Of a stretch of DNA of 64,000 nucleotides, positions 31,073-52,668 are shown piece after piece (the stretch's first letter is position 1; every line of letters starts with the position of its first letter). The translations under genes were made by a program, and so were the position numbers. This DNA is from a virus. The notes under the pieces were generated by a model, which had not been told where the DNA came from, searched no databases, and saw only the letters and a list, made by a program, of their open reading frames with translations. Where the stretch lies: the IMG/VR virus record IMGVR_UViG_3300014205_000222; one strand, given 5' to 3'.

Positions 31073-33514
31073 TTATTCTGGTTTCCTTACAATCAAGAAA
31101 GAAACCACACCAAGACCAATCAGCGCAATTAACGCACCAAAACCCGGAGATTTCGGAGTTTCCGTTGGAACCACAGTTGGGTCAGGGGTTATGACCGGAG
31201 TTGGTACTTCGGTTACTACGGTTGTCGGCTGCGTTGTCGGCGGGGTTGTTGGAGGCGGTGTTGGTGTAGGAGTTGGTGTAGGAACAAACGCTACCAAGTC
31301 AAATACGCTGCTTCCAGACACGGAAACAACAATACCCGTAACCGAAACACGGTATTCGTCTACCTTAAACCCATCGGTATCAAACTCATACACAAACTTA
31401 TTGGCAGACTGTCCACCATCGACAACCTTCACAACGCTGCTGCTACCGCTAAACGTTCCCGGAGCAACTTTGTCGGTCGGTTTGAACGAAGATGAAAGCA
31501 CTTCTACAAGAATTTCATTCCCAACTGCAAGATTTGTGGTTCCAGTTACAGTAACCATATCTCCAACAGCCTTGCGCGGGATATTTGTGATGCTAATGTA
31601 TGGAGCTTCTATAATGAAACTGTTCTGAACATACAAATCGTCAACCGATGGATCGTTAATTGCATTTATTAAAGCAGTTGCTGCTTCAGACGACTGAAGG
31701 CTTCCAGAACCCTGTACCTTGAACTTTGTGTTCCCATATACAGGATACGTTCCTACAACAAGATCTCCGGATTTCCACACGTCAAACTGGTTGTTATACA
31801 TTGGGTGTTGAACAACAACATAATACTGACCATCTGCAAGATTGCCGGTATCCCCGCGTGTCAGCTTAAGTTCGTATGACGCATCATCATCAACAGAAAC
31901 CTGCTTTACCAACACATAATTCTTACCGAAAATCCAAACCATTACACCAGATGCTGAGTCTGTTCCTGCAGAACCGGCGACGATAATCTCATCGCCCCGT
32001 GCTGCGTTTTTAGGAGTAACTTCGGCACTCAACGTTGGCTTGCGAACAATAATCGATACTGTTGCATACTGTATGCCCTGTAAATTATCCCTGTTCCGAG
32101 GCTCGGAAACAGCATATACAGTATATGTTCCAGAATCAATTCCTATAGCGTCCGTTCTCCACTTGTAATCATACGAATCGTCTTCGCGGACATCTGCATT
32201 AACCATGTTTGAAACATTGATTGGTTCACGCGGCGAATCTAACTTTCCGCCAGCATTTGGAAGATTCGGTCCAGTTATAAAGAAATACGTGCTTTCAGTT
32301 TCAGTGTTTACACCAGCAAGTACAATCTCATCGCCAAGATAATATGAATTTTTATCGGTTACCAACGAGAGTTGCCCGGTGCTTACAGTCACTGTAACCT
32401 CACCCGATTTATACTCGCTGCCAAACTTATTTTCGGCACGAATGGTGTATCGTCTGTCCTGTGTGTCGCTGTACGTCTGGAAACCAATAGTTCTCTTACC
32501 AGAAGAATCTGTAGTTACCGTTGCAAAATATTTTGCATCACCGTTTGGAACACTTGCATCAATACGCTTACCACCCTCGGTAATATACCCCGGGTTTGCT
32601 CCAATCGAAACACCATACTGGTTCGATATAATTACAGGGGCCGGGTCTGTCTGTGTAGATTTTACAAACACATGATATTCCGTGTTTGGCTGACCAGTTA
32701 CCGTAACCGAAAATGCACCTCCACGGGTTACACTTGCAACATTCGACTCGACACGAATCCCTTCGGATGCAATAAAGAATGTTCTGACTACAGATTTTAC
32801 ATCCAAACTATTAACCCCGCACGTCGCATGAACCTTATATTCTCCGGCAGGGTATAACCGCGCAGAACCAGAACGAGCATCCAAATTCCATGCATCATTA
32901 GCAACTTTGTTTGCCCAATAAAACAGGGAACCAGTTAACGGAACGTTATCGATACTGCGATCACCATTTATTGTCACGAGTTTGTTATATACAGAACCAC
33001 TCGGTGCGGCAACCCTGATATCAAAATCAAACGCCTCTGTTGAATTTACATTCCGCGCGCGAATAAGATGCAGGTTAGACTCAACCCTGAAATCAACGCG
33101 CGATGTTCTGGCAATGCTTTCTCCGTCAACACGTTTGTCTGCCGGAATATCCCAAATCAGAACGTTAATCTGCGGGTTTTCGACATAGAATGCAACTCCG
33201 TGCGAAGTGCTACCATCCCACCGATACCATGCATCTGTTCTTCCAGTGAACGTTGATGGCGAAACATAGAAATCTGTCTTGCCAGTAACATCAACGACTC
33301 GCCCCGGCGAATCTATAGACGGATTCGAACCAGATGGGAACCATGCAATTTTATCATAACTGCCTACGGCAGCAGATATATCCAAACTTTCTTCCCCGAT
33401 GAACACCGTTCCCTCTTGCGCAACAGTGCTATAAGCTCCAGCAGAAACCGGAGCAGCTAAAGCAAAAGCCGCGAGGATCAGTGCAACAACCATAATTGAA
33501 AAATTCGCTTTCAT
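31073..33514 (-). CDS. large secreted cell-surface protein with Ig-like/beta-rich repeats, PT-rich linker and PGF-CTERM archaeosortase sorting signal
   Basis: Start at 33514 (GGTGGGAG SD, signal peptide MKANFSIMVVALILAAFALAAPVSA); C-terminus …PTPTPTPTPPPTTPPTTQPTT…PKSPGFGALIALIGLGVVSFLIVRKPE = PGF-CTERM; listed ORF start 33646 over-extended. Confidence 0.7.
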   Translation of the reverse strand: MKANFSIMVVALILAAFALAAPVSAGAYSTVAQEGTVFIGEESLDISAAVGSYDKIAWFPSGSNPSIDSPGRVVDVTGKTDFYVSPSTFTGRTDAWYRWDGSTSHGVAFYVENPQINVLIWDIPADKRVDGESIARTSRVDFRVESNLHLIRARNVNSTEAFDFDIRVAAPSGSVYNKLVTINGDRSIDNVPLTGSLFYWANKVANDAWNLDARSGSARLYPAGEYKVHATCGVNSLDVKSVVRTFFIASEGIRVESNVASVTRGGAFSVTVTGQPNTEYHVFVKSTQTDPAPVIISNQYGVSIGANPGYITEGGKRIDASVPNGDAKYFATVTTDSSGKRTIGFQTYSDTQDRRYTIRAENKFGSEYKSGEVTVTVSTGQLSLVTDKNSYYLGDEIVLAGVNTETESTYFFITGPNLPNAGGKLDSPREPINVSNMVNADVREDDSYDYKWRTDAIGIDSGTYTVYAVSEPRNRDNLQGIQYATVSIIVRKPTLSAEVTPKNAARGDEIIVAGSAGTDSASGVMVWIFGKNYVLVKQVSVDDDASYELKLTRGDTGNLADGQYYVVVQHPMYNNQFDVWKSGDLVVGTYPVYGNTKFKVQGSGSLQSSEAATALINAINDPSVDDLYVQNSFIIEAPYISITNIPRKAVGDMVTVTGTTNLAVGNEILVEVLSSSFKPTDKVAPGTFSGSSSVVKVVDGGQSANKFVYEFDTDGFKVDEYRVSVTGIVVSVSGSSVFDLVAFVPTPTPTPTPPPTTPPTTQPTTVVTEVPTPVITPDPTVVPTETPKSPGFGALIALIGLGVVSFLIVRKPE

Positions 33515-33660
33515 AGTCAATATCTTCTCCCACCGGGTTTTTTTCAAACACCCGGTGTCGTGTTTTACCACATAACAGATAATATTTCTAATTTCACATA
33601 TATAAGAGTTACGATAAATGATAAAATTATCAAACCAATGCGACAAAGAAATAATATTTA

Positions 33661-37235: not shown

Positions 37236-37436
37236 TCACATCATATTTTGAATTTCCATATATAAACATTTTTTCATTGTATGTCTACGTTTTTTTGACA
37301 ACCACCGTTTAGGTTTTCCTTCCTCCTTAATCAAATTATGACACATCTGCCATCGGTCAAACTGTTTATATTGATGTCTCAACCACAGCATTCCTTTATA
37401 ATGCTGGTAATTATATGCGCGTTTTGTGCGACTCAT
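37236..37436 (-). CDS. small basic protein (66 aa) embedded in tRNA array
   Basis: ORF track; fills the only gap in array. Confidence 0.3.
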   Translation of the reverse strand: MSRTKRAYNYQHYKGMLWLRHQYKQFDRWQMCHNLIKEEGKPKRWLSKKRRHTMKKCLYMEIQNMM

Positions 37437-37812: not shown

Positions 37813-38111
37813 AGTTGAAAAACCAATACAACAACACTTATAGTGTTGTCGAAGACGTACTAAGTAACGGGGTTGACCCTAAAATAGAATAATCGAAAAT
37901 GCACACTCGGACATTAAATCCATTCTGTTTATTTTCCATTTTTATCACATACATATTTCCACTCAAAAGTATATAAATTTAACCCTCGACAAAATATTCC
38001 TCAATTTGCTCTGACCACAAACATATATACTCGCTTGCCTCGCGCGGGGAAATTTCACGGTTGTATATACCAAGCGAAATTCTGTTCATATGATCCAAAA
38101 GGTTTTGTTTT

Positions 38112-38384
38112 TTATCTGGCATTTAGACGACCACCCACAAAATTTTCTCTGTATATCTGTTTCATATGTTCAAACGATGTATACAACACCACAGGAACCG
38201 CAAAAAACAACAATACAAACTCTGGGTCAGCCTCACCAACCAAATTCACAGTAAACAACATCGTATGATTTGGAGAGAAATATGCGCGCATCCATGTGTA
38301 CGCCATTAACAAGATGTATAGCATAGACATCATTGAACCATACAACATTATCGCAGCCCTGATTTTTTGTGAAACTGGAACCAC
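38112..38384 (-). CDS. small membrane protein (90 aa)
   Basis: ORF track. Confidence 0.35.
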   Translation of the reverse strand: MVPVSQKIRAAIMLYGSMMSMLYILLMAYTWMRAYFSPNHTMLFTVNLVGEADPEFVLLFFAVPVVLYTSFEHMKQIYRENFVGGRLNAR

Positions 38385-39392: not shown

Positions 39393-39728
39393 ATGGATGT
39401 AACCAAATTAACTCCACACGGTGCCGATGTTAAAATCGGAGCTGGTGTTGGTATCCAGCCGCAAAACGTTGGTCAGACAGCACATAAAAAACAAAGAAAA
39501 CAAAATAAAACAATGGCAATCCCTTATGCATGCATAAAACGATTGGCACAAAACCAAAGCAGTGGAATGAGAATTTCAAGCGATGCTGTTTTTGTAATTG
39601 AAAAAGCACTCGAAGACTTCTCTGCGAAATTGATAAGTGTTTCGAAATCGTATACAGAACATAGAAACCGCAAGACCATAACATCTCTTGATGTTGATGT
39701 TGCACTAAAAAACATTGCTGAAATGTGA
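39393..39728 (+). CDS. archaeal histone (HMf-like histone fold) with 40-aa basic N-terminal extension (canonical fold starts at Met 39513)
   Basis: …AIPYACIKRLAQNQSSGMRISSDAVFVIEKALEDFSAKLISVSKSYTEHRNRKTITSLDVDVAL… aligns with HMfB (LPIAPIGRII…RVS.DA…HAGRKTI…D); TATA ATATATATAA at 39371-80. Confidence 0.7.
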   Translation: MDVTKLTPHGADVKIGAGVGIQPQNVGQTAHKKQRKQNKTMAIPYACIKRLAQNQSSGMRISSDAVFVIEKALEDFSAKLISVSKSYTEHRNRKTITSLDVDVALKNIAEM

Positions 39729-43176: not shown

Positions 43177-43248
43177 TGAACGTAGCAGGAATCGAACCTG
43201 CCATCTTCGCCATGTCAAGGCGACATCTTACCACTCGACTATACGTTC
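43177..43248 (-). tRNA. tRNA-Val-GAC: tRNA-Val(GAC)
   Basis: Acceptor GAACGUA/UACGUUC, loop UUGACAU, T-arm GCAGGUUCGAUUCCUGC. Confidence 0.7.
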
Positions 43249-43251
43249 AAA

Positions 43252-43325
43252 CGGACGCACGGAGATTTGAACTCCGACAAACAGATTAAGAATCTGTGAT
43301 GCAATCCAAACTACATTATACGTCC
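43252..43325 (-). tRNA. tRNA-Lys-CUU: tRNA-Lys(CUU)
   Basis: Acceptor GGACGUA/UGCGUCC, D-stem AUGU/GCAU, loop UUCUUAA, T-arm CGGAGUUCAAAUCUCCG. Confidence 0.75.
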
Positions 43326-43659
43326 AAATTGTACAGGGGGTTGCACCACCGGTTGGTTTGAGCTCTTTACCATCCTGAAACGTGCATCATCCAAACATAG
43401 AACTTTGTGTACACCTAAACATAGACCCCTGCACAAAATAATATATGCATTCAAGATATTTAAATCATTCTATCACAGATTGTTTTTGGGATATATTTTA
43501 CCGCATCGAAATAACAAGCCACACAAAAAAACAATAATATAGAGCGACAATTGATGTTATAATCACAATTCCAACAATAAAGACAGAAAATGGACATATT
43601 ATCACATCCCCCCGGGAAGTCACTCCTATCGGTTCACACGTCAAATAAATTGTCATCTA

Positions 43660-43730
43660 CGGGCGCGAGGGGAATCGAACCCCCTCTATCGGATTAAAAG
43701 TCCTGTGTGCGACCACTACACTACGCACCC
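43660..43730 (-). tRNA. tRNA-Lys-UUU: tRNA-Lys(UUU), weak anticodon stem
   Basis: Acceptor GGGUGCG/CGCGCCC, D-stem GUGU/GCAC, loop CUUUUAA, T-arm GGGGGUUCGAUUCCCCU; two mismatches at top of anticodon stem. Confidence 0.55.
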
Positions 43731-43733
43731 AAT

Positions 43734-43806
43734 TGTCCGGTCAGGATTTGAACCTGAGTCGCCAGATCATGGGTCTGGTATTCTGTACCAAGCTATACCA
43801 CCGGAC
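43734..43806 (-). tRNA. tRNA-CAU: tRNA-Met/Ile2(CAU) with C33
   Basis: Acceptor GUCCGGU/ACCGGAC, anticodon stem CCAGA/UCUGG loop CCCAUGA, T-arm UCAGGUUCAAAUCCUGA; long D-loop. Confidence 0.55.
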
Positions 43807-43984
43807 AACGATGTGTGCGGTGCCCGATTAAGCACATCCTCTCGGGCACCATTTAGCAGGTTTTACGTTTCGAAACCTATTGCTGTTAAACGTAGCCACG
43901 TTATTAACGAATAAGGGCAAGACGAGTGTTTTTTAGGTCACACTTAAACGACCCCCCACAACATAGTGCTACATGTGTGAGGAA
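43807..43984 (-). ncRNA. structured 178-nt spacer inside tRNA array (candidate small RNA / processing element)
   Basis: Perfect 9-bp hairpin GGUGCCCGA…UCGGGCACC (43819-43856), palindrome CGUUUCGAAACG within AGGUUU…AAACCU hairpin; no ORF. Confidence 0.3.
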
Positions 43985-44056
43985 TGCGCCCAGCAGGAGT
44001 CGAACCTACAACCGACACGGTGTAAACGTGCCGTGCTACCATTGCACCATGAGCGC
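43985..44056 (-). tRNA. tRNA-Val-UAC: tRNA-Val(UAC)
   Basis: Acceptor GCGCUCA/UGGGCGC, D-stem GUGC/GCAC, loop UUUACAC, T-arm GUAGGUUCGACUCCUGC. Confidence 0.8.
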
Positions 44057-44109
44057 GCGAATATTACTATTTGTCGTTATAATATATTAATTTAATGGTG
44101 TTTGTGGCA

Positions 44110-44649
44110 TCAATTGCCACAAATATATTCACCTATATCAAACAAATTGTTGGCAAGGTATACTGTTCCACGCATATACGAATTCCATGGAAATTCCAAT
44201 CCAGTTGCCAGTATACCTTTACAATATGCAACATTCAGTGTTTTTGGTGAATCGTCTATAACAACCTTCGTTGTGCCGTTAAACATTTTTGTCTTGTCGT
44301 ATGATATATGAATATCATCATATCGAATGTTATGTTTTTTCATCCACCGCGCAAGCAACTCTCTGGATTCTTCGCGCCGGTGCGAAGCTATCAGAACATT
44401 GAAATCTTCCTGCAGTCTACGCATAAATGAATCTGCCCCATCTAAAGGCGCGCATTCCATAATACGCATTTGGGCATTGTGTGCAGCTTCGAAAAAATCT
44501 TCTTCGCACATATAACCATGGTAAAAATCCCACTCGTTCCAATCAGTGTGTTTTGGTATTTCGGGATTATATTTGACAAGTTCTTCATAAAAAACAGGCG
44601 CAAAATCACACAATGTATTGTCAACATCTACAACAGCATCTTTAGACAT
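44110..44649 (-). CDS. HAD-superfamily phosphatase, 5'(3')-deoxyribonucleotidase (NT5C)-like
   Basis: N-terminal VVDVDNTLCDF (DxDxT HAD motif I); 179 aa typical of NT5C family. Confidence 0.5.
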   Translation of the reverse strand: MSKDAVVDVDNTLCDFAPVFYEELVKYNPEIPKHTDWNEWDFYHGYMCEEDFFEAAHNAQMRIMECAPLDGADSFMRRLQEDFNVLIASHRREESRELLARWMKKHNIRYDDIHISYDKTKMFNGTTKVVIDDSPKTLNVAYCKGILATGLEFPWNSYMRGTVYLANNLFDIGEYICGN

Positions 44650-44961: not shown

Positions 44962-45038
44962 TCGGTGTAGTGGGATTTGAACCCACGGCTTTCCGGTTCG
45001 CACCCGGACTGTCTAAATCCAGACTGACATATACACCA
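44962..45038 (-). tRNA. tRNA-Arg-GCG: tRNA-Arg(GCG) (archaeal-type Arg isoacceptor)
   Basis: Acceptor UGGUGUA/UACACCG, anticodon stem UCCGG/CCGGA loop GUGCGAA, T-arm GUGGGUUCAAAUCCCAC; 5' end +/-1. Confidence 0.65.
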
Positions 45039-45945: not shown

Positions 45946-47472
45946 TTAAATTTTTGTTGTTGGGATTTTGAAATTTTCAATTTCCTGTATCATTGTCTCG
46001 CGGTTTGTCTCGAAGAGGCTTATATAATTGAATATCTTATCACTGTATCCAGCAACATTAACTACATTTTTATGACCTTCTGGTAACGTTGCAAGCCCAT
46101 ATCCTGCGAGATCTACAAGATACACGAACACATTTGGATTTATATTCCTCTGATATTTTAGAAACTCTTTTACAAATGATTCTGAACCATATGCCGATGT
46201 ATTATACAGCACCATATCACTGAAAAGCACAACCCGGTCAACAAACTTTTTGTTATCGTTGAGATACCGAATTGCCTTCCAACCATTTGTAGAGTGCCCA
46301 AGATGCTGTTCTGTAACACTTTCGATATTCTGTAATATTGAGCTGCCACCCATTGGGATAACCGCAAAATCTGTTCCAAATGCTGAAATAATAGATTTTG
46401 TCGATATATAATCCAATATAGACCCGTACAGAGATGCAACCTGCGCGCGAGATACCACAGATTTTTCACTGAGGGCAACCGTCATACTACCACTAACATC
46501 AATCGATGTAAATGTGATACCACCAAGTTTTGGAACATTATTTAAACTAATTTGTAGAGCCTTCTCCAAGCCTTTCAAAACCACATTAACGTTTTCCGTT
46601 GCTACATCGTATTTTCTAGTTTTTACAATAGAATGCGCCGTATAAAACCTGTATGGGAATTGTTTTGATGACCGTATGGCACGTTCATCTACAATGCGCG
46701 ACATATAAAGTTCTGGTTCGATTCCAAACTTAAGAAAATTATTTAGATTACGGAGTAGCGCCATATACCCCATGTCGGGGATTTCCTTTTCCCAATTTTC
46801 TTTGGTAGAACCTTCACGCATTATGTTAGCATTCCACGACGAATTAACAACCTTTTTGTTGATAATTCTTTCAAAGACATCAGCCATATCCTTATTCAGC
46901 GGTTTTGGGTGGACGACGCACATCGCGTCTTTAAGGCTTACACTCGACCCATCACCGAGATACTTACCAAACTGATACTCATCGAAATTATAAAAAGCGC
47001 GTGATAAACCCTTTTTAAGAACCATTGGTACATGTGCACGAGCCTTTTCATTATGCGAATTCAACTGAAACTGATACGCCAGCATTTCAGTAATTTCGTC
47101 AGGTCTCTGAATTGTAGAGGTAACAATTTTACTAAAATCGTTGTGACCTTTGCCAGACGGAAGATTTGCAGCTTCCACTAACAACATGATAGGAACGGTA
47201 CGAAGATACAAGTTGTGGCGCACATATGCCGCAAGATTAAACACAAACTTCGGGTCTAATTCGGTGACTTCTCGGATTAAGTCTTTAAGTTCTTTATCCG
47301 ATTGTGTAGCACTGGTATAAAACTTTGGCTCACCGACCATTGCAGATGCAACACGAAGGTAAAGTTCCAATTTCTTTGACACATTAAACGCGATTCCGCC
47401 TTCAAAATTAGTTGTTACATCGCCACGTGATTCTAAAACGCTTGTTGTCGTTTTTTTCGTATTAAACTTCAT
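45946..47472 (-). CDS. rsr: Ro60/Rsr-like TROVE-domain RNA-binding protein with C-terminal vWA/MIDAS
   Basis: 508 aa; N-terminal …NFEGGIAFNVSKKLELYLRVASAMVGEPKFYTS… resembles TROVE start (N.AGG.AF…RL.RFLILGS…TYY); C-terminal DVSGSM MIDAS motif; AAGGTG SD upstream. Confidence 0.65.
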   Translation of the reverse strand: MKFNTKKTTTSVLESRGDVTTNFEGGIAFNVSKKLELYLRVASAMVGEPKFYTSATQSDKELKDLIREVTELDPKFVFNLAAYVRHNLYLRTVPIMLLVEAANLPSGKGHNDFSKIVTSTIQRPDEITEMLAYQFQLNSHNEKARAHVPMVLKKGLSRAFYNFDEYQFGKYLGDGSSVSLKDAMCVVHPKPLNKDMADVFERIINKKVVNSSWNANIMREGSTKENWEKEIPDMGYMALLRNLNNFLKFGIEPELYMSRIVDERAIRSSKQFPYRFYTAHSIVKTRKYDVATENVNVVLKGLEKALQISLNNVPKLGGITFTSIDVSGSMTVALSEKSVVSRAQVASLYGSILDYISTKSIISAFGTDFAVIPMGGSSILQNIESVTEQHLGHSTNGWKAIRYLNDNKKFVDRVVLFSDMVLYNTSAYGSESFVKEFLKYQRNINPNVFVYLVDLAGYGLATLPEGHKNVVNVAGYSDKIFNYISLFETNRETMIQEIENFKIPTTKI

Positions 47473-47514: not shown

Positions 47515-47841
47515 TGGATTTCATTGAATGATAACAGTTTTTTCAGTCATATGGTTTGTCCGCCCGGACATAATATGTTCAAGTCCAATCCACCCCACAT
47601 ATTATTTTTGCAGGATTTCATCGAATTATAACAGGGTTTTCAGTCGGTTATAGGAAATAATATCACTTGGTAATGCGATGAACCCACAACCTGCGCATCC
47701 CTGCTTACTGGGAGAACTTATGAACGACTTAAACTTAAACTTAATCTATAACGCATTTCGGTGGGTTTTCAGACGAACATGGCAAAATACCTTGTTTAGA
47801 GGTAGAGTTCCACAATGATGAAACCACGTTCTGCGCATCCC
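47515..47841. repeat. tandem imperfect repeats in rsr-upstream noncoding region (candidate Y-RNA-like ncRNA genes)
   Basis: Units 47634-47701 and 47763-47841 share termini GGGUUUUCAG[UA]C … GAUGAA[CA]CCAC…CUGCGCAUCCC; extra copies of GGATTTCAT[TC]GAAT[GT]ATAACAG at 47515 and 47613; degenerate unit ~47536-47600. Confidence 0.55.
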
Positions 47842-47959
47842 ACTCCAATGCAACAATATTATTGTGTAACTAATAGTATATATACATTTCCAAACATTTC
47901 ACGAAAAGCATGTAAAAATTACACATATGCAGATATTATCAACCCGCACGTTAAAAAAA

Positions 47960-52393: not shown

Positions 52394-52396
52394 TAA

Positions 52397-52468
52397 CGTC
52401 CGGTGCGGGTACTGCCCCCGCCTCATAACCGTGACAGGGTTATATGCTGTCTAATACACCAACCGAAC
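52397..52468 (-). tRNA. tRNA-Asp-GUC: tRNA-Asp(GUC) with non-canonical T-loop (GGCAGUA)
   Basis: Acceptor GUUCGGU/ACCGGAC, D-stem GUGU/GCAU, anticodon stem UAACC/GGUUA loop CUGUCAC, T-stem GCGGG/CCCGC but loop lacks U54-U55; keeps the array's 3-nt spacing. Confidence 0.55.
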
Positions 52469-52471
52469 AAA

Positions 52472-52537
52472 ATGGGTGGTGCCGGAGTTGAACCCAACAC
52501 TTTTACCACCATGGGTGGATCAATCCCCATGGCACCC
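52472..52537 (-). pseudogene. degenerate tRNA-like element
   Basis: Correct 3-nt spacing; T-loop UUCAACU and 3' ACCACCC-A but T-stem and acceptor pair poorly (5/7); only ~66 nt. Confidence 0.3.
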
Positions 52538-52668
52538 ACGGAGCATCCCTAATACAATACGCATGTATTTCCGTCTTTTACGTGCATGCATCCGGAAACA
52601 CGGCAAGATCGTTGTCGGGTCTTGTACCGCCATACAATAAGATTGCGACTCTTTGCATTGTATGGAAA

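What the first reader, a model, noticed from the sequence alone, without database searches (positions are those of the whole stretch)
43807..43984. 178-nt highly structured spacer inside an otherwise 3-4-nt-spaced tRNA array
Neighbouring tRNAs are separated by 2-4 nt, but here a 178-nt ORF-free segment is inserted. It carries a perfect 9-bp GC-rich hairpin (GGUGCCCGA/UCGGGCACC), a second hairpin around the palindrome CGUUUCGAAACG, and a G6 run. It may be an embedded small RNA (Y-like or tRNA-like), a processing or termination signal, or a degraded tRNA.
Basis: seen in the sequence. Interest (0 to 1): 0.5.

Follow-up and report, generated by a model that had tools for sequence, protein, structure and literature searches.

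The report
Mosaic non-coding spacer in viral tRNA array
A 177-base gene-free stretch between two tRNA genes of a large archaeal virus is real and carries one strong GC-rich hairpin, but it matches no known RNA family, part of it is a leftover of a gene junction, and it is not the Ro60-partner "Y RNA" (good candidates for that lie 3.7 kb away, next to the virus's Ro60 gene).

Summary
The spacer is real. It covers window 43808-43984 on the minus strand (177 nt), between tRNA-Val(UAC) and tRNA-Met(CAU). It has no credible ORF.

"Highly structured" is overstated:
- The whole spacer folds only slightly better than shuffles (z -1.5).
- The 3' GC-rich hairpin (43819-43850, z about -4) exceeds chance and is the only GC-rich one in 64 kb.
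- The 5' hairpin that uses the G6 run also exceeds chance (z -2.6).
- The middle 100 nt, including the palindrome, do not (z +0.2).

Identity tests were negative. There is no Rfam family at E<=10 and no tRNA or tmRNA call. BHB-like motifs and a loose HDV-like motif occur no more often than in shuffled sequence. No homologue was found in any collection, and the one syntenic relative lacks the whole segment.

Spacer nt 21-58, which include the G6 run, copy the junction of two conserved genes elsewhere in the window (30/38 identical, empirical p about 0.003). That part is a coding relic.

The window is from an archaeal virus with a Ro60 gene 2 kb upstream. Two tandem stem-bulge-stem RNAs sit directly upstream of Ro60. 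Similar RNAs sit upstream of Ro60 in three related viruses, with covariation. The spacer does not match that model.

Best reading: a lineage-specific mosaic spacer, co-transcribed with the tRNAs and cut out during their processing. Only the GC hairpin is plausibly under selection.

The parts
43808..43984 (-). The spacer itself: 177 nt, 46% G+C, with no credible ORF.
   Evidence: G+C is 0.46, against 0.38 for the window and 0.31-0.36 for three of the four other long gaps in the arrays (the gap at 52394-52667 is 0.50).
43985..44056 (-). tRNA-Val(UAC), the upstream gene of the same transcription unit. No CCA is encoded. Its discriminator A can pair with spacer nt 34.
44077..44090 (-). A/T-rich TATA-like element 21-34 nt upstream of tRNA-Val. 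It is the likely promoter of the unit.
   Evidence: Similar 'AAA..T(T/A)TA(A/T)ATAT' elements sit 20-45 nt upstream of most other tRNA clusters and of the Ro60-linked RNA. Calling it a promoter is an inference.
43952..43984 (-). 5' hairpin (spacer nt 1-33). UUCCUCACACAUG pairs with UAUG-UGUGGGGGG, so it uses the G6 run at 43952-43957. It abuts the acceptor stem of tRNA-Val.
   Evidence: Energy -12.9 kcal/mol, z -2.6, p 0.016.
43927..43964 (-). Relic of a gene junction (spacer nt 21-58). It is 30/38 identical to window 38106-38143, which holds the stop of a 90-aa gene, a G-rich ribosome-binding-like run and the start of a 47-aa gene. In the spacer the start position reads GUG-UGA.
   Evidence: One of 400 shuffles reaches the score. 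Both genes at 38106-38143 are conserved in L025.
43851..43926 (-). Central part (spacer nt 59-134). It contains the 10-nt palindrome GTTTCGAAAC (43867-43876) and two mutually exclusive weak hairpins. Its structure does not exceed chance.
   Evidence: z +0.17 for nt 35-134, -0.6 for nt 62-125, -1.1 for nt 90-134.
43819..43850 (-). GC-rich hairpin (spacer nt 135-166): a 9-bp perfect stem, 12 bp with an AA bulge, and a 6-nt apical loop. Energy -20.3 kcal/mol.
43808..43818 (-). 11-nt linker GCACACAUCGU between the hairpin and the 5' end of tRNA-Met. Together with the last stem bases (CACCGCACA) it is 8/9 complementary to the first 9 nt of tRNA-Met.
   Evidence: Read from the sequence. In the fold the hairpin and the cloverleaf both form.
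43733..43807 (-). tRNA-Met(CAU), the downstream gene. It has no promoter-like element of its own.
43811..43817 (-). Second copy of the direct repeat CACACAU. The first copy is at 43973-43979. The repeats bracket 162 nt of the spacer.
   Evidence: Read from the sequence. Its meaning (microhomology at an insertion) is an inference made after the fact.

Best explanation
The spacer is a lineage-specific, mosaic, non-coding insert in an otherwise tight tRNA array of an archaeal tailed virus.

Transcription and processing: it has no promoter or terminator of its own. It is therefore transcribed from the TATA-like element upstream of tRNA-Val as the middle of a tRNA-Val / spacer / tRNA-Met / tRNA-Lys precursor. 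The enzymes that trim the two flanking tRNAs then cut it out: tRNase Z after the discriminator of tRNA-Val, and RNase P at the 5' end of tRNA-Met.

Composition: the 5' third is debris of a gene junction. Its G-run happens to pair with the tRNA trailer. The middle has no structure beyond chance.

The GC hairpin: the 12-bp GC-rich hairpin, 11 nt upstream of tRNA-Met, is the one element likely to be maintained. My proposal is that it acts in cis. It would lock up the leader sequence CACCGCACA, which could otherwise pair with the 5' acceptor strand of tRNA-Met, and it would cap the 3' end of the excised fragment.

Shown here: the anatomy, the statistics, the relic, the absence of family matches, and the absence of promoter or terminator motifs.

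Inferred: co-transcription, the processing sites, and the insulating role of the hairpin.
For: - Position and lack of ORF.
- Structure above chance is confined to the two terminal hairpins.
- The GC hairpin is unique in the window.
- nt 21-58 copy the junction of two genes that are conserved in a relative. The empirical p is about 0.003. This explains the G6 run as the counterpart of a ribosome-binding-like GGGUGG.
- TATA-like elements lie upstream of tRNA-Val and of other clusters, but not in the 70 nt upstream of tRNA-Met.
- No terminator-like site was found. The transcribed strand has no T run above 3. tRNA-Glu, the last gene of its cluster, is followed at once by T5 (read from the sequence).
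- The syntenic relative L025 has the same Ro60 / phosphatase / tRNA order but lacks the whole segment from about 40.8 to 44.6 kb. The spacer is therefore not a core feature of the group.
- The other long gap compared with a relative carries a small ORF conserved in L025.
- A 9-nt near-repeat brackets 162 nt of the spacer. Removing that interval would leave a 15-nt spacer.
Against: - No transcript data are available.
- No homologue of the spacer is available, so there is no test of conservation or covariation. The four assemblies that carry it are 100% identical over 17.8-21.5 kb.
- A perfect GC-rich hairpin and 46% G+C in a 38% G+C genome look more like a maintained RNA than like debris. If the hairpin is as old as the 79%-identical relic, its perfection argues for selection, which a trans-acting role would explain equally well.
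- A related virus (L029) has an unrelated but well-folding 192-nt ORF-free spacer after another tRNA-Val (z -2.95). This hints that embedded RNAs may be a habit of this group.
- The proposed insulating role is untested.
Confidence: 0.5

Rival explanations
1. It is a functional, stable small RNA that is released from the tRNA precursor and acts in trans. It would be comparable to the species 1 and species 2 RNAs (rnaC, rnaD) of phage T4, possibly as a ligand or decoy for the virus's RNA-repair and quality-control proteins (Ro60, RlaP, CCA-adding enzyme).
For: - Hairpins at both ends would protect an excised RNA.
- G+C is above that of three of the four other long gaps, and the GC hairpin is unique in the window.
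- T4 has 119- and 139-nt stable RNAs placed 1 and 6 nt after a tRNA in its cluster.
- RNA-repair genes surround the arrays.
- A relative has another structured ORF-free spacer after a tRNA-Val.
Against: - The central 100 nt show no structure above chance.
- One third of the spacer is coding debris.
- The segment is absent from the syntenic relative.
- There is no similarity to rnaC or rnaD, and the spacer has no T-arm like the one in rnaC.
- No family match was found.
Confidence: 0.2
2. It is a Y RNA, the RNA partner of the virus's Ro60 protein, of the YrlA type or of the virus-specific type.
For: - A Ro60/TROVE gene lies about 2 kb upstream on the same strand. That is within the 4-kb, same-strand rule used for YrlA (PMC4201824).
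- The spacer contains a CGAA tetramer.
Against: - It has no GNCGAA(N)G motif, no T-arm or D-arm, and no stem joining its two ends.
- No Rfam hit was found.
- The RNAs conserved directly upstream of Ro60 in four viruses give a model that scores the spacer at 0.7 bits with filters off, against 34-91 bits for true members.
- CGAA is expected by chance about 0.7 times in 177 nt.
Confidence: 0.03
3. It is what remains of one or more decayed tRNA genes. For example, the GC hairpin could be a former acceptor or T-arm helix.
For: - It sits in a tRNA array.
- GGUGCC...GGCACC also occurs in an unannotated tRNA-like element at 52478-52536.
- The loop and 3' strand of the hairpin loosely resemble a T-loop, T-stem and acceptor 3' strand (by eye only).
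Against: - No tRNA-model hit at E<=10 on either strand, and no ARAGORN call.
- No significant similarity to any tRNA in the window or in relatives.
- Complementarity continues beyond 7 bp, which a relic of an acceptor stem would not require.
- The only detectable ancestry is from a protein-gene junction.
Confidence: 0.1
4. The 5' part is a self-cleaving HDV-like (theta-type) ribozyme that frees the 3' end of tRNA-Val.
For: - A loose nested double-pseudoknot descriptor finds a solution starting 1 nt after the first spacer base.
- Theta ribozymes sit within 5 nt of tRNA ends in phages (PMC10879173).
- The virus encodes a CCA-adding enzyme with an HD domain and a metallophosphatase.
Against: - 27.5% of shuffles give a hit with the same descriptor, with a mean of 1.2 hits.
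- P2 is 4 bp with a G-U pair and lies about 60 nt away.
- There is no G at +1 and no C-rich L3, and P1.1 is A-U plus C-G.
- No Rfam ribozyme hit at E<=10.
- Theta ribozymes are about 50 nt long and have so far been reported only in gut phages.
Confidence: 0.04
5. The feature works at the DNA level. The 9-bp inverted repeat with a 14-bp spacer would be a binding site for a dimeric protein (regulator, recombinase or nuclease), or the scar of a mobile insertion.
For: - It is the only GC-rich inverted repeat in the window.
- A direct repeat CACACAT brackets the insert.
- A relative carries an IS200/IS605 element.
Against: - The bracketed segment has no terminal inverted repeats.
- No second copy exists in the window or in relatives.
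- No transposase, integrase or other candidate binding protein was found nearby.
Confidence: 0.08

Closest known systems
Phage T4 species 1 and species 2 RNAs (rnaC, rnaD)
   Same: They are non-coding RNAs of 119-139 nt placed 1-6 nt after a tRNA inside a viral tRNA cluster. They are annotated as small stable RNAs. Their function is still unknown (from my own knowledge).
   Different: No sequence similarity to the spacer. rnaC ends in a T-arm and an acceptor-like helix, which the spacer lacks. The T4 RNAs follow the last tRNA of a sub-cluster, whereas this spacer lies between two tRNAs. Stability of the spacer RNA has not been shown.
Bacterial and phage Y RNAs (YrlA; Yrl1 and Yrl2 of Thermus phage phiLo)
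   Same: Same strand as a Ro60 gene and within 4 kb of it. The spacer is a non-coding RNA in a virus with many tRNAs.
   Different: None of the defining motifs or helices are present. The layout described for phiLo is two RNAs directly upstream of Ro60, each a stem, a bulge with CGAA and a stem (PMC12135203). In this window that layout is found at 47629-47846, not in the spacer.
Theta (minimal HDV-like) ribozymes next to phage tRNAs
   Same: A structured element starting at the 3' end of a viral tRNA gene.
   Different: The fit to the fold is no better than chance and lacks the conserved positions. The candidate is about 94 nt, against about 50 nt for theta ribozymes.
Pseudogene or recombination scar in a mosaic virus genome
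   Same: A 38-nt segment is derived from a gene junction elsewhere in the same genome. The segment is absent from the syntenic relative. It is bracketed by a short direct repeat.
   Different: A scar does not explain the perfect GC-rich hairpin.

Membership tests
YrlA-type Y RNA | GNCGAA(N0-1)G motif near the 5' end | tested here: not met
   The motif is defined in PMC4201824. It is not present on either strand of the spacer (sequence). The only CGAA is preceded by UU.
YrlA-type Y RNA | tRNA-like domain: T-arm and D-arm stem-loops with an acceptor-like stem-loop between them | tested here: not met
   No UUCRANY loop closed by a 5-bp stem. No tRNA-model hit at E<=10. No ARAGORN call.
YrlA-type Y RNA | Encoded within 4 kb of the Ro60 gene on the same strand | tested here: met
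   Ro60 is at 45946-47472 on the minus strand. The spacer starts 1.96 kb downstream on the same strand.
YrlA-type Y RNA | Bound by Ro60 | not testable with these tools
   Needs a pull-down or gel-shift experiment.
Ro60-linked stem-bulge-stem RNA of this virus group (model R1) | 5-bp terminal stem, bulge AUGCG(C/A/U)AG opposite CG..UG...ACC, and a 9-bp inner stem | tested here: not met
   With filters off, the best score inside the spacer is 0.7 bits. Members score 33.6-91.2 bits. A motif scan found neither half of the bulge in the spacer.
tRNA gene or tRNA pseudogene | Cloverleaf, or a recognisable part of one, scored by the tRNA covariance model | tested here: not met
   No local similarity to the window's 30 tRNAs above shuffle level.
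HDV-like / theta ribozyme | Nested double pseudoknot P1-P2-P3-P1.1-P4 with a catalytic C at the start of J4/2 | tested here: inconclusive
   The loose descriptor finds a solution starting at 43983, but so do 27.5% of shuffles. No Rfam hit. Cleavage is not testable here.
Intrinsic (hairpin plus U-run) or archaeal oligo-T terminator | GC-rich stem followed by a U run, or a run of at least 5 T on the transcribed strand | tested here: not met
   No terminator-like site in 43200-44200. The hairpin is followed by GCACACAUCGU. The longest T run on the minus strand is 3.
Archaeal bulge-helix-bulge (splicing endonuclease) substrate | Two 3-nt bulges separated by a 4-bp helix and flanked by helices | tested here: not met
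   11 loose matches in the region, against a mean of 12.2 in shuffles. None is placed at the spacer ends in a sensible way.
T4 rnaC/rnaD-like stable RNA of a tRNA cluster | Accumulates as a discrete stable RNA after processing of the tRNA precursor | not testable with these tools
   The genomic position is comparable. There is no sequence or T-arm similarity.

The most novel reading that the evidence does not exclude
The spacer is cut out of the tRNA precursor as a hairpin-capped RNA of about 177 nt that the virus uses in trans. It could serve as a second, non-canonical ligand or decoy for its Ro60, RlaP and CCA-enzyme RNA-repair module. That would be an archaeal-virus counterpart of the T4 species 1 and 2 RNAs, but with an assignable partner.
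Probability: 0.1. Interest if true: 0.6.

Novelty: new member of a known kind. Interest (0 to 1): 0.25.

Why it matters
On its own it matters little. It is one more long, partly structured spacer in a viral tRNA cluster, with no relatives and no assignable function.

Its value is as a pointer. Checking the "Y-like" guess showed that the window comes from an archaeal virus with a Ro60 gene. It also showed that convincing Y-RNA-like genes, conserved with covariation in four viruses, lie directly upstream of that gene. As far as I know, Y RNAs have not been described for archaeal viruses.

If the spacer RNA proved to be stable and protein-bound, it would give a tractable example of the still unexplained "extra" RNAs in viral tRNA clusters.

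Tried and rejected
Searches for homologues of the spacer (all negative):
- megablast and blastn against 50,697 phage genomes.
- The hairpin pattern in IMG/VR gave 24 hits, all chance hairpins with no other similarity.
- Neighbouring proteins used as anchors: Ro60, the NT5C-like protein and the CCA-adding enzyme.
  - L025 is syntenic but lacks the segment.
  - L032 has NT5C, an ORF and tRNA-Val(tac), but the contig ends 4 nt after the tRNA. Those 4 nt are TTCC, as in the window.
  - L029 and L157-L161 have different neighbourhoods.
- A tRNA-Val anticodon/T-arm pattern in the metagenome collection was too unspecific. 
- The full tRNA-Val pattern in genome and viral collections gave no hits.
- The four assemblies that carry the spacer are identical over 17.8-21.5 kb, so they give no information about population variation.

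Identity tests (negative or no better than chance):
- Rfam at the gathering threshold and at E<=10.
- tRNA and tmRNA.
- Sigma-70 promoter and intrinsic terminator scan.
- Bulge-helix-bulge scan.
- HDV-like descriptor.
- C/D-box, H/ACA and K-turn motifs, by eye only.
- MITE or PATE: no terminal inverted repeats and no second copy.
- Coding potential: the only internal ORF is 30 aa with a TTG start and no ribosome-binding-like run. tblastx gave no significant hit.
- Similarity to T4 rnaC and rnaD.

Full report
**What is there**

The window carries 30 tRNA genes, all on the minus strand between 36.5 and 52.7 kb. ARAGORN finds 28 and the Rfam tRNA model adds two. The finding lies between tRNA-Val(UAC), 43985-44056, and tRNA-Met(CAU), 43733-43807. 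On the transcribed minus strand the spacer is 177 nt (43984 down to 43808). Within sub-clusters most neighbouring tRNAs are 0-5 nt apart. No credible ORF lies in the spacer. The only ORF wholly inside it is 30 aa, starts with TTG and has no ribosome-binding-like run. The longer ORFs listed there run through the tRNA genes.

**Is it more than chance?**

Only in part.
- The whole spacer folds at -49.8 kcal/mol, z = -1.5. The plus strand gives z = -1.26.
- Spacer nt 133-169, the GC hairpin GGUGCCCGA/UCGGGCACC at 43819-43850, extends to 12 bp with an AA bulge. It has z = -4.3.
- Spacer nt 1-34, a 13-bp hairpin in which the tRNA trailer UUCCUC pairs with the G6 run, has z = -2.6 (p 0.016).
- Spacer nt 35-134 have z = +0.17. 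The segment around the palindrome has z = -0.6 to -1.1 (all).
- A perfect stem of 9 bp or more arises in 1.05% of dinucleotide shuffles of the spacer.
- Among the roughly 15 distinct perfect 9-bp hairpins in the 64-kb window, this is the only one with more than four G-C pairs.
The perfect palindrome is 10 nt, GTTTCGAAAC, at 43867-43876. About 16 palindromes of 12 nt are expected by chance in 64 kb, and shorter ones are commoner still.
- The spacer has 46% G+C. The window has 38%, three of the four other long gaps in the arrays have 31-36% (the gap at 52394-52667 has 50%), and the tRNAs have 54%.

**What kind of genome this is**

No phage genome in the 50,697-record collection is close at the DNA level. 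The proteins point to a tailed virus of a euryarchaeon.
- An 857-aa protein has DUF3821 and a PGF-CTERM sorting signal.
- There is a histone-fold protein.
- The best cultured match to the window's Ro60 is Halogranum tailed virus 1, at 31% identity.
- A/T-rich TATA-like elements preceded by AAA sit 20-45 nt upstream of most tRNA clusters.

Around the arrays the virus encodes:
- Ro60 (TROVE plus vWA domains, 45946-47472 minus)
- a metallophosphatase
- an NT5C-like nucleotidase
- a class II CCA-adding enzyme with an HD domain
- an ADP-ribosyltransferase
- RlaP

The same virus is present, 100% identical over 17.8-21.5 kb, in three other assemblies.

**Transcription context**

A TATA-like element lies at 44077-44090, 21-34 nt upstream of tRNA-Val. 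No such element lies in the 70 nt upstream of tRNA-Met. The minus strand of the spacer has no T run longer than 3, and no terminator-like site is predicted. tRNA-Glu, the last gene of its cluster, is followed at once by T5 (sequence). The next long T run on the minus strand is T7 at 43526-43532.

I infer a precursor of tRNA-Val, spacer, tRNA-Met and tRNA-Lys. The spacer would be released by tRNase Z and RNase P. This has not been shown.

**Known families**

Rfam gives nothing in the spacer, at gathering thresholds or at E<=10 on either strand. That includes tRNA, Y RNA and the self-cleaving ribozyme families.
- Bulge-helix-bulge motifs are no more frequent than in shuffles: 11 against a mean of 12.2.
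- A loose HDV-like descriptor gives a solution that starts 1 nt into the spacer. The same descriptor hits 27.5% of shuffles. The solution has a 4-bp P2 about 60 nt away, no G at +1 and no C-rich L3 (compare PMC10879173).

**Ancestry**

The only significant similarity of the spacer to anything is internal. Spacer nt 21-58 (43927-43964) are 30/38 identical to 38106-38143. One of 400 dinucleotide shuffles reaches that score.

That second site is the junction of a 90-aa membrane protein gene and a 47-aa gene. Both are conserved in the relative L025, at 66% and 49% identity. The aligned parts are the last codons (..VGGRLNAR* against ..VGGRLSVT*), the G-rich run (GGGUGG against GGGGGG) and the start codon position (AUG against GUG, followed at once by UGA).

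The G6 run is therefore a leftover of a ribosome-binding-like run, and this part of the spacer is coding debris. A 9-nt near-repeat, C(U/G)CACACAU, lies at spacer nt 4-12 and 166-174. Deleting the interval between the copies would leave a 15-nt spacer. This fits an insertion by microhomology, but I noticed it after the fact.

**Relatives**

I used the neighbouring proteins as anchors.
- L025 (Ro60 59% identical) has the same order of SPFH protein, Ro60, phosphatase, tRNA-Ala-Tyr-Arg-Phe-Asn, tRNA-Glu and histone-fold protein. It lacks the segment from the NT5C gene to tRNA-Arg(tct). No spacer homologue is detectable in it.
- L032 (NT5C 63% identical) has NT5C, an ORF and tRNA-Val(tac). The contig ends 4 nt after the tRNA, with TTCC as in the window.
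- Relatives found through the CCA enzyme have another neighbourhood.
- IMG/VR holds no relatives.

There is therefore no comparative test of the spacer.

**The Y-RNA idea**

The 487-nt gene-free stretch directly upstream of Ro60 holds two tandem units, at 47758-47846 and 47629-47706 on the minus strand. L025 has two at the same place. All four fold as follows:
- a 5-bp terminal stem
- a conserved bulge, AUGCGCAG on the 5' side and CG..UGA(A/U)AA on the 3' side
- a 9-bp inner stem

A covariance model built from these four found new members directly upstream of the Ro60 genes of two further viruses. These are L164 4578-4652 (E 5e-10) and L162 3801-3910 (E 4e-7). The Ro60 proteins of those viruses are 47% identical to the window's.

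Over the six sequences, 96.4% of cells pair and 6 of 14 pairs show double changes. Between 0 and 1 of 500 shuffles reach these values, and the slid controls collapse.

One L025 unit carries a T-arm (GUUGGUUCGAUCCCAAU) followed by a perfect 8-bp hairpin, as in YrlA (PMC4201824). The layout matches the two Y-like RNAs reported upstream of the Ro60 gene of Thermus phage phiLo (PMC12135203).

The spacer scores 0.7 bits against this model with filters off. It has neither half of the bulge motif. It has no GNCGAA motif, no T-arm and no stem joining its ends.

**Closest analogue**

By genomic logic, the closest analogues are the small stable species 1 and 2 RNAs of phage T4. They are 139 and 119 nt and sit 1-6 nt after tRNA-Arg. 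They share no sequence with the spacer. rnaC ends in a T-arm, which the spacer lacks.

**Verdict**

The feature is real but ordinary in kind: a lineage-specific, mosaic, non-coding spacer inside a tRNA transcription unit. One third is debris of a gene junction, the middle is unstructured, and one GC-rich hairpin is probably maintained. If the hairpin is as old as the 79%-identical relic, neutral decay should have broken an 18-24-nt perfect stem, so its perfection suggests selection.

I propose a cis role for the hairpin. It would hold the leader CACCGCACA, which is 8/9 complementary to the first 9 nt of tRNA-Met, and cap the excised fragment. I give this reading about 0.5. A trans-acting stable RNA gets about 0.2 and a decayed tRNA about 0.1. 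A DNA-level site, a ribozyme or a Y RNA are each below 0.1.

Noticed in passing
window 47629-47846 (-), with Ro60 at 45946-47472 (-); L025 9179-9417; L164 4578-4652; L162 3801-3910: Two tandem stem-bulge-stem RNAs sit directly upstream of a viral Ro60 gene. They are conserved in four related viruses. New members were found by a covariance model (E 5e-10 and 4e-7). Six of 14 pairs covary. One member carries a T-arm plus an acceptor-like hairpin. These are strong candidates for Y RNAs of archaeal viruses. None is recognised by Rfam.
   Followed up: yes
window 52394-52667 (-); L025 3035-3386: A 274-nt gap with 50% G+C between tRNA-Ile and tRNA-Gln, conserved in L025. It holds an undetected tRNA-Asp(GUC) with a non-standard T-loop GGCAGUA and compensatory acceptor changes (about 52399-52470). 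Next to it is a three-way-junction tRNA-like element (about 52470-52545), and further conserved hairpins lie upstream. No tRNA or Rfam call.
   Followed up: partly
window 31073-33646 (-), 39393-39728 (+), 21019-21837 (-): Signs of an archaeal host and an RNA-repair theme: a DUF3821 protein with a PGF-CTERM signal, a histone-fold protein, and RlaP. The window also encodes a CCA-adding enzyme, and PTH2 is on the same virus contig. A relative, L029, has Thg1.
   Followed up: partly
L029 7960-8151 (+): A related virus has a 192-nt spacer with no called gene and a good fold (z -2.95) between tRNA-Val(gac) and tRNA-Trp. These two genes are adjacent in the window. It has no Rfam match and no similarity to the spacer studied here.
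   Followed up: partly
window 43252-43325 (-) and 44962-45038 (-): Two tRNA genes found by the Rfam model but missed by ARAGORN. The first reads as tRNA-Lys(CUU). The second corresponds in position to tRNA-Arg(gcg) of L025.
   Followed up: partly
window 37236-37436 (-); L025 16359-16599: The 234-nt gap between tRNA-Leu(gag) and tRNA-Leu(tag) holds a small, very basic 66-aa ORF with a GGAGG run upstream. It is conserved in L025, so at least one long gap in the arrays is coding.
   Followed up: partly
window 43733-43807 (-): The tRNA-Met(CAU) after the spacer has C instead of U at position 33 and a U1-A72 first pair. Its role (initiator, elongator or Ile2-type) is unclear.
   Followed up: no
window 47516-47548 and 47613-47645: A 33-nt direct repeat (88% identical) overlaps the 3' end of the second Y-like unit and lies again 97 nt downstream. 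A 9-bp perfect hairpin lies between the two copies (47570-47605). This may be a third, degenerate unit.
   Followed up: no
L160 15283-16736; L161 11303-12600: An IS200/IS605-type element (Y1 transposase plus TnpB) sits in a related virus genome.
   Followed up: no
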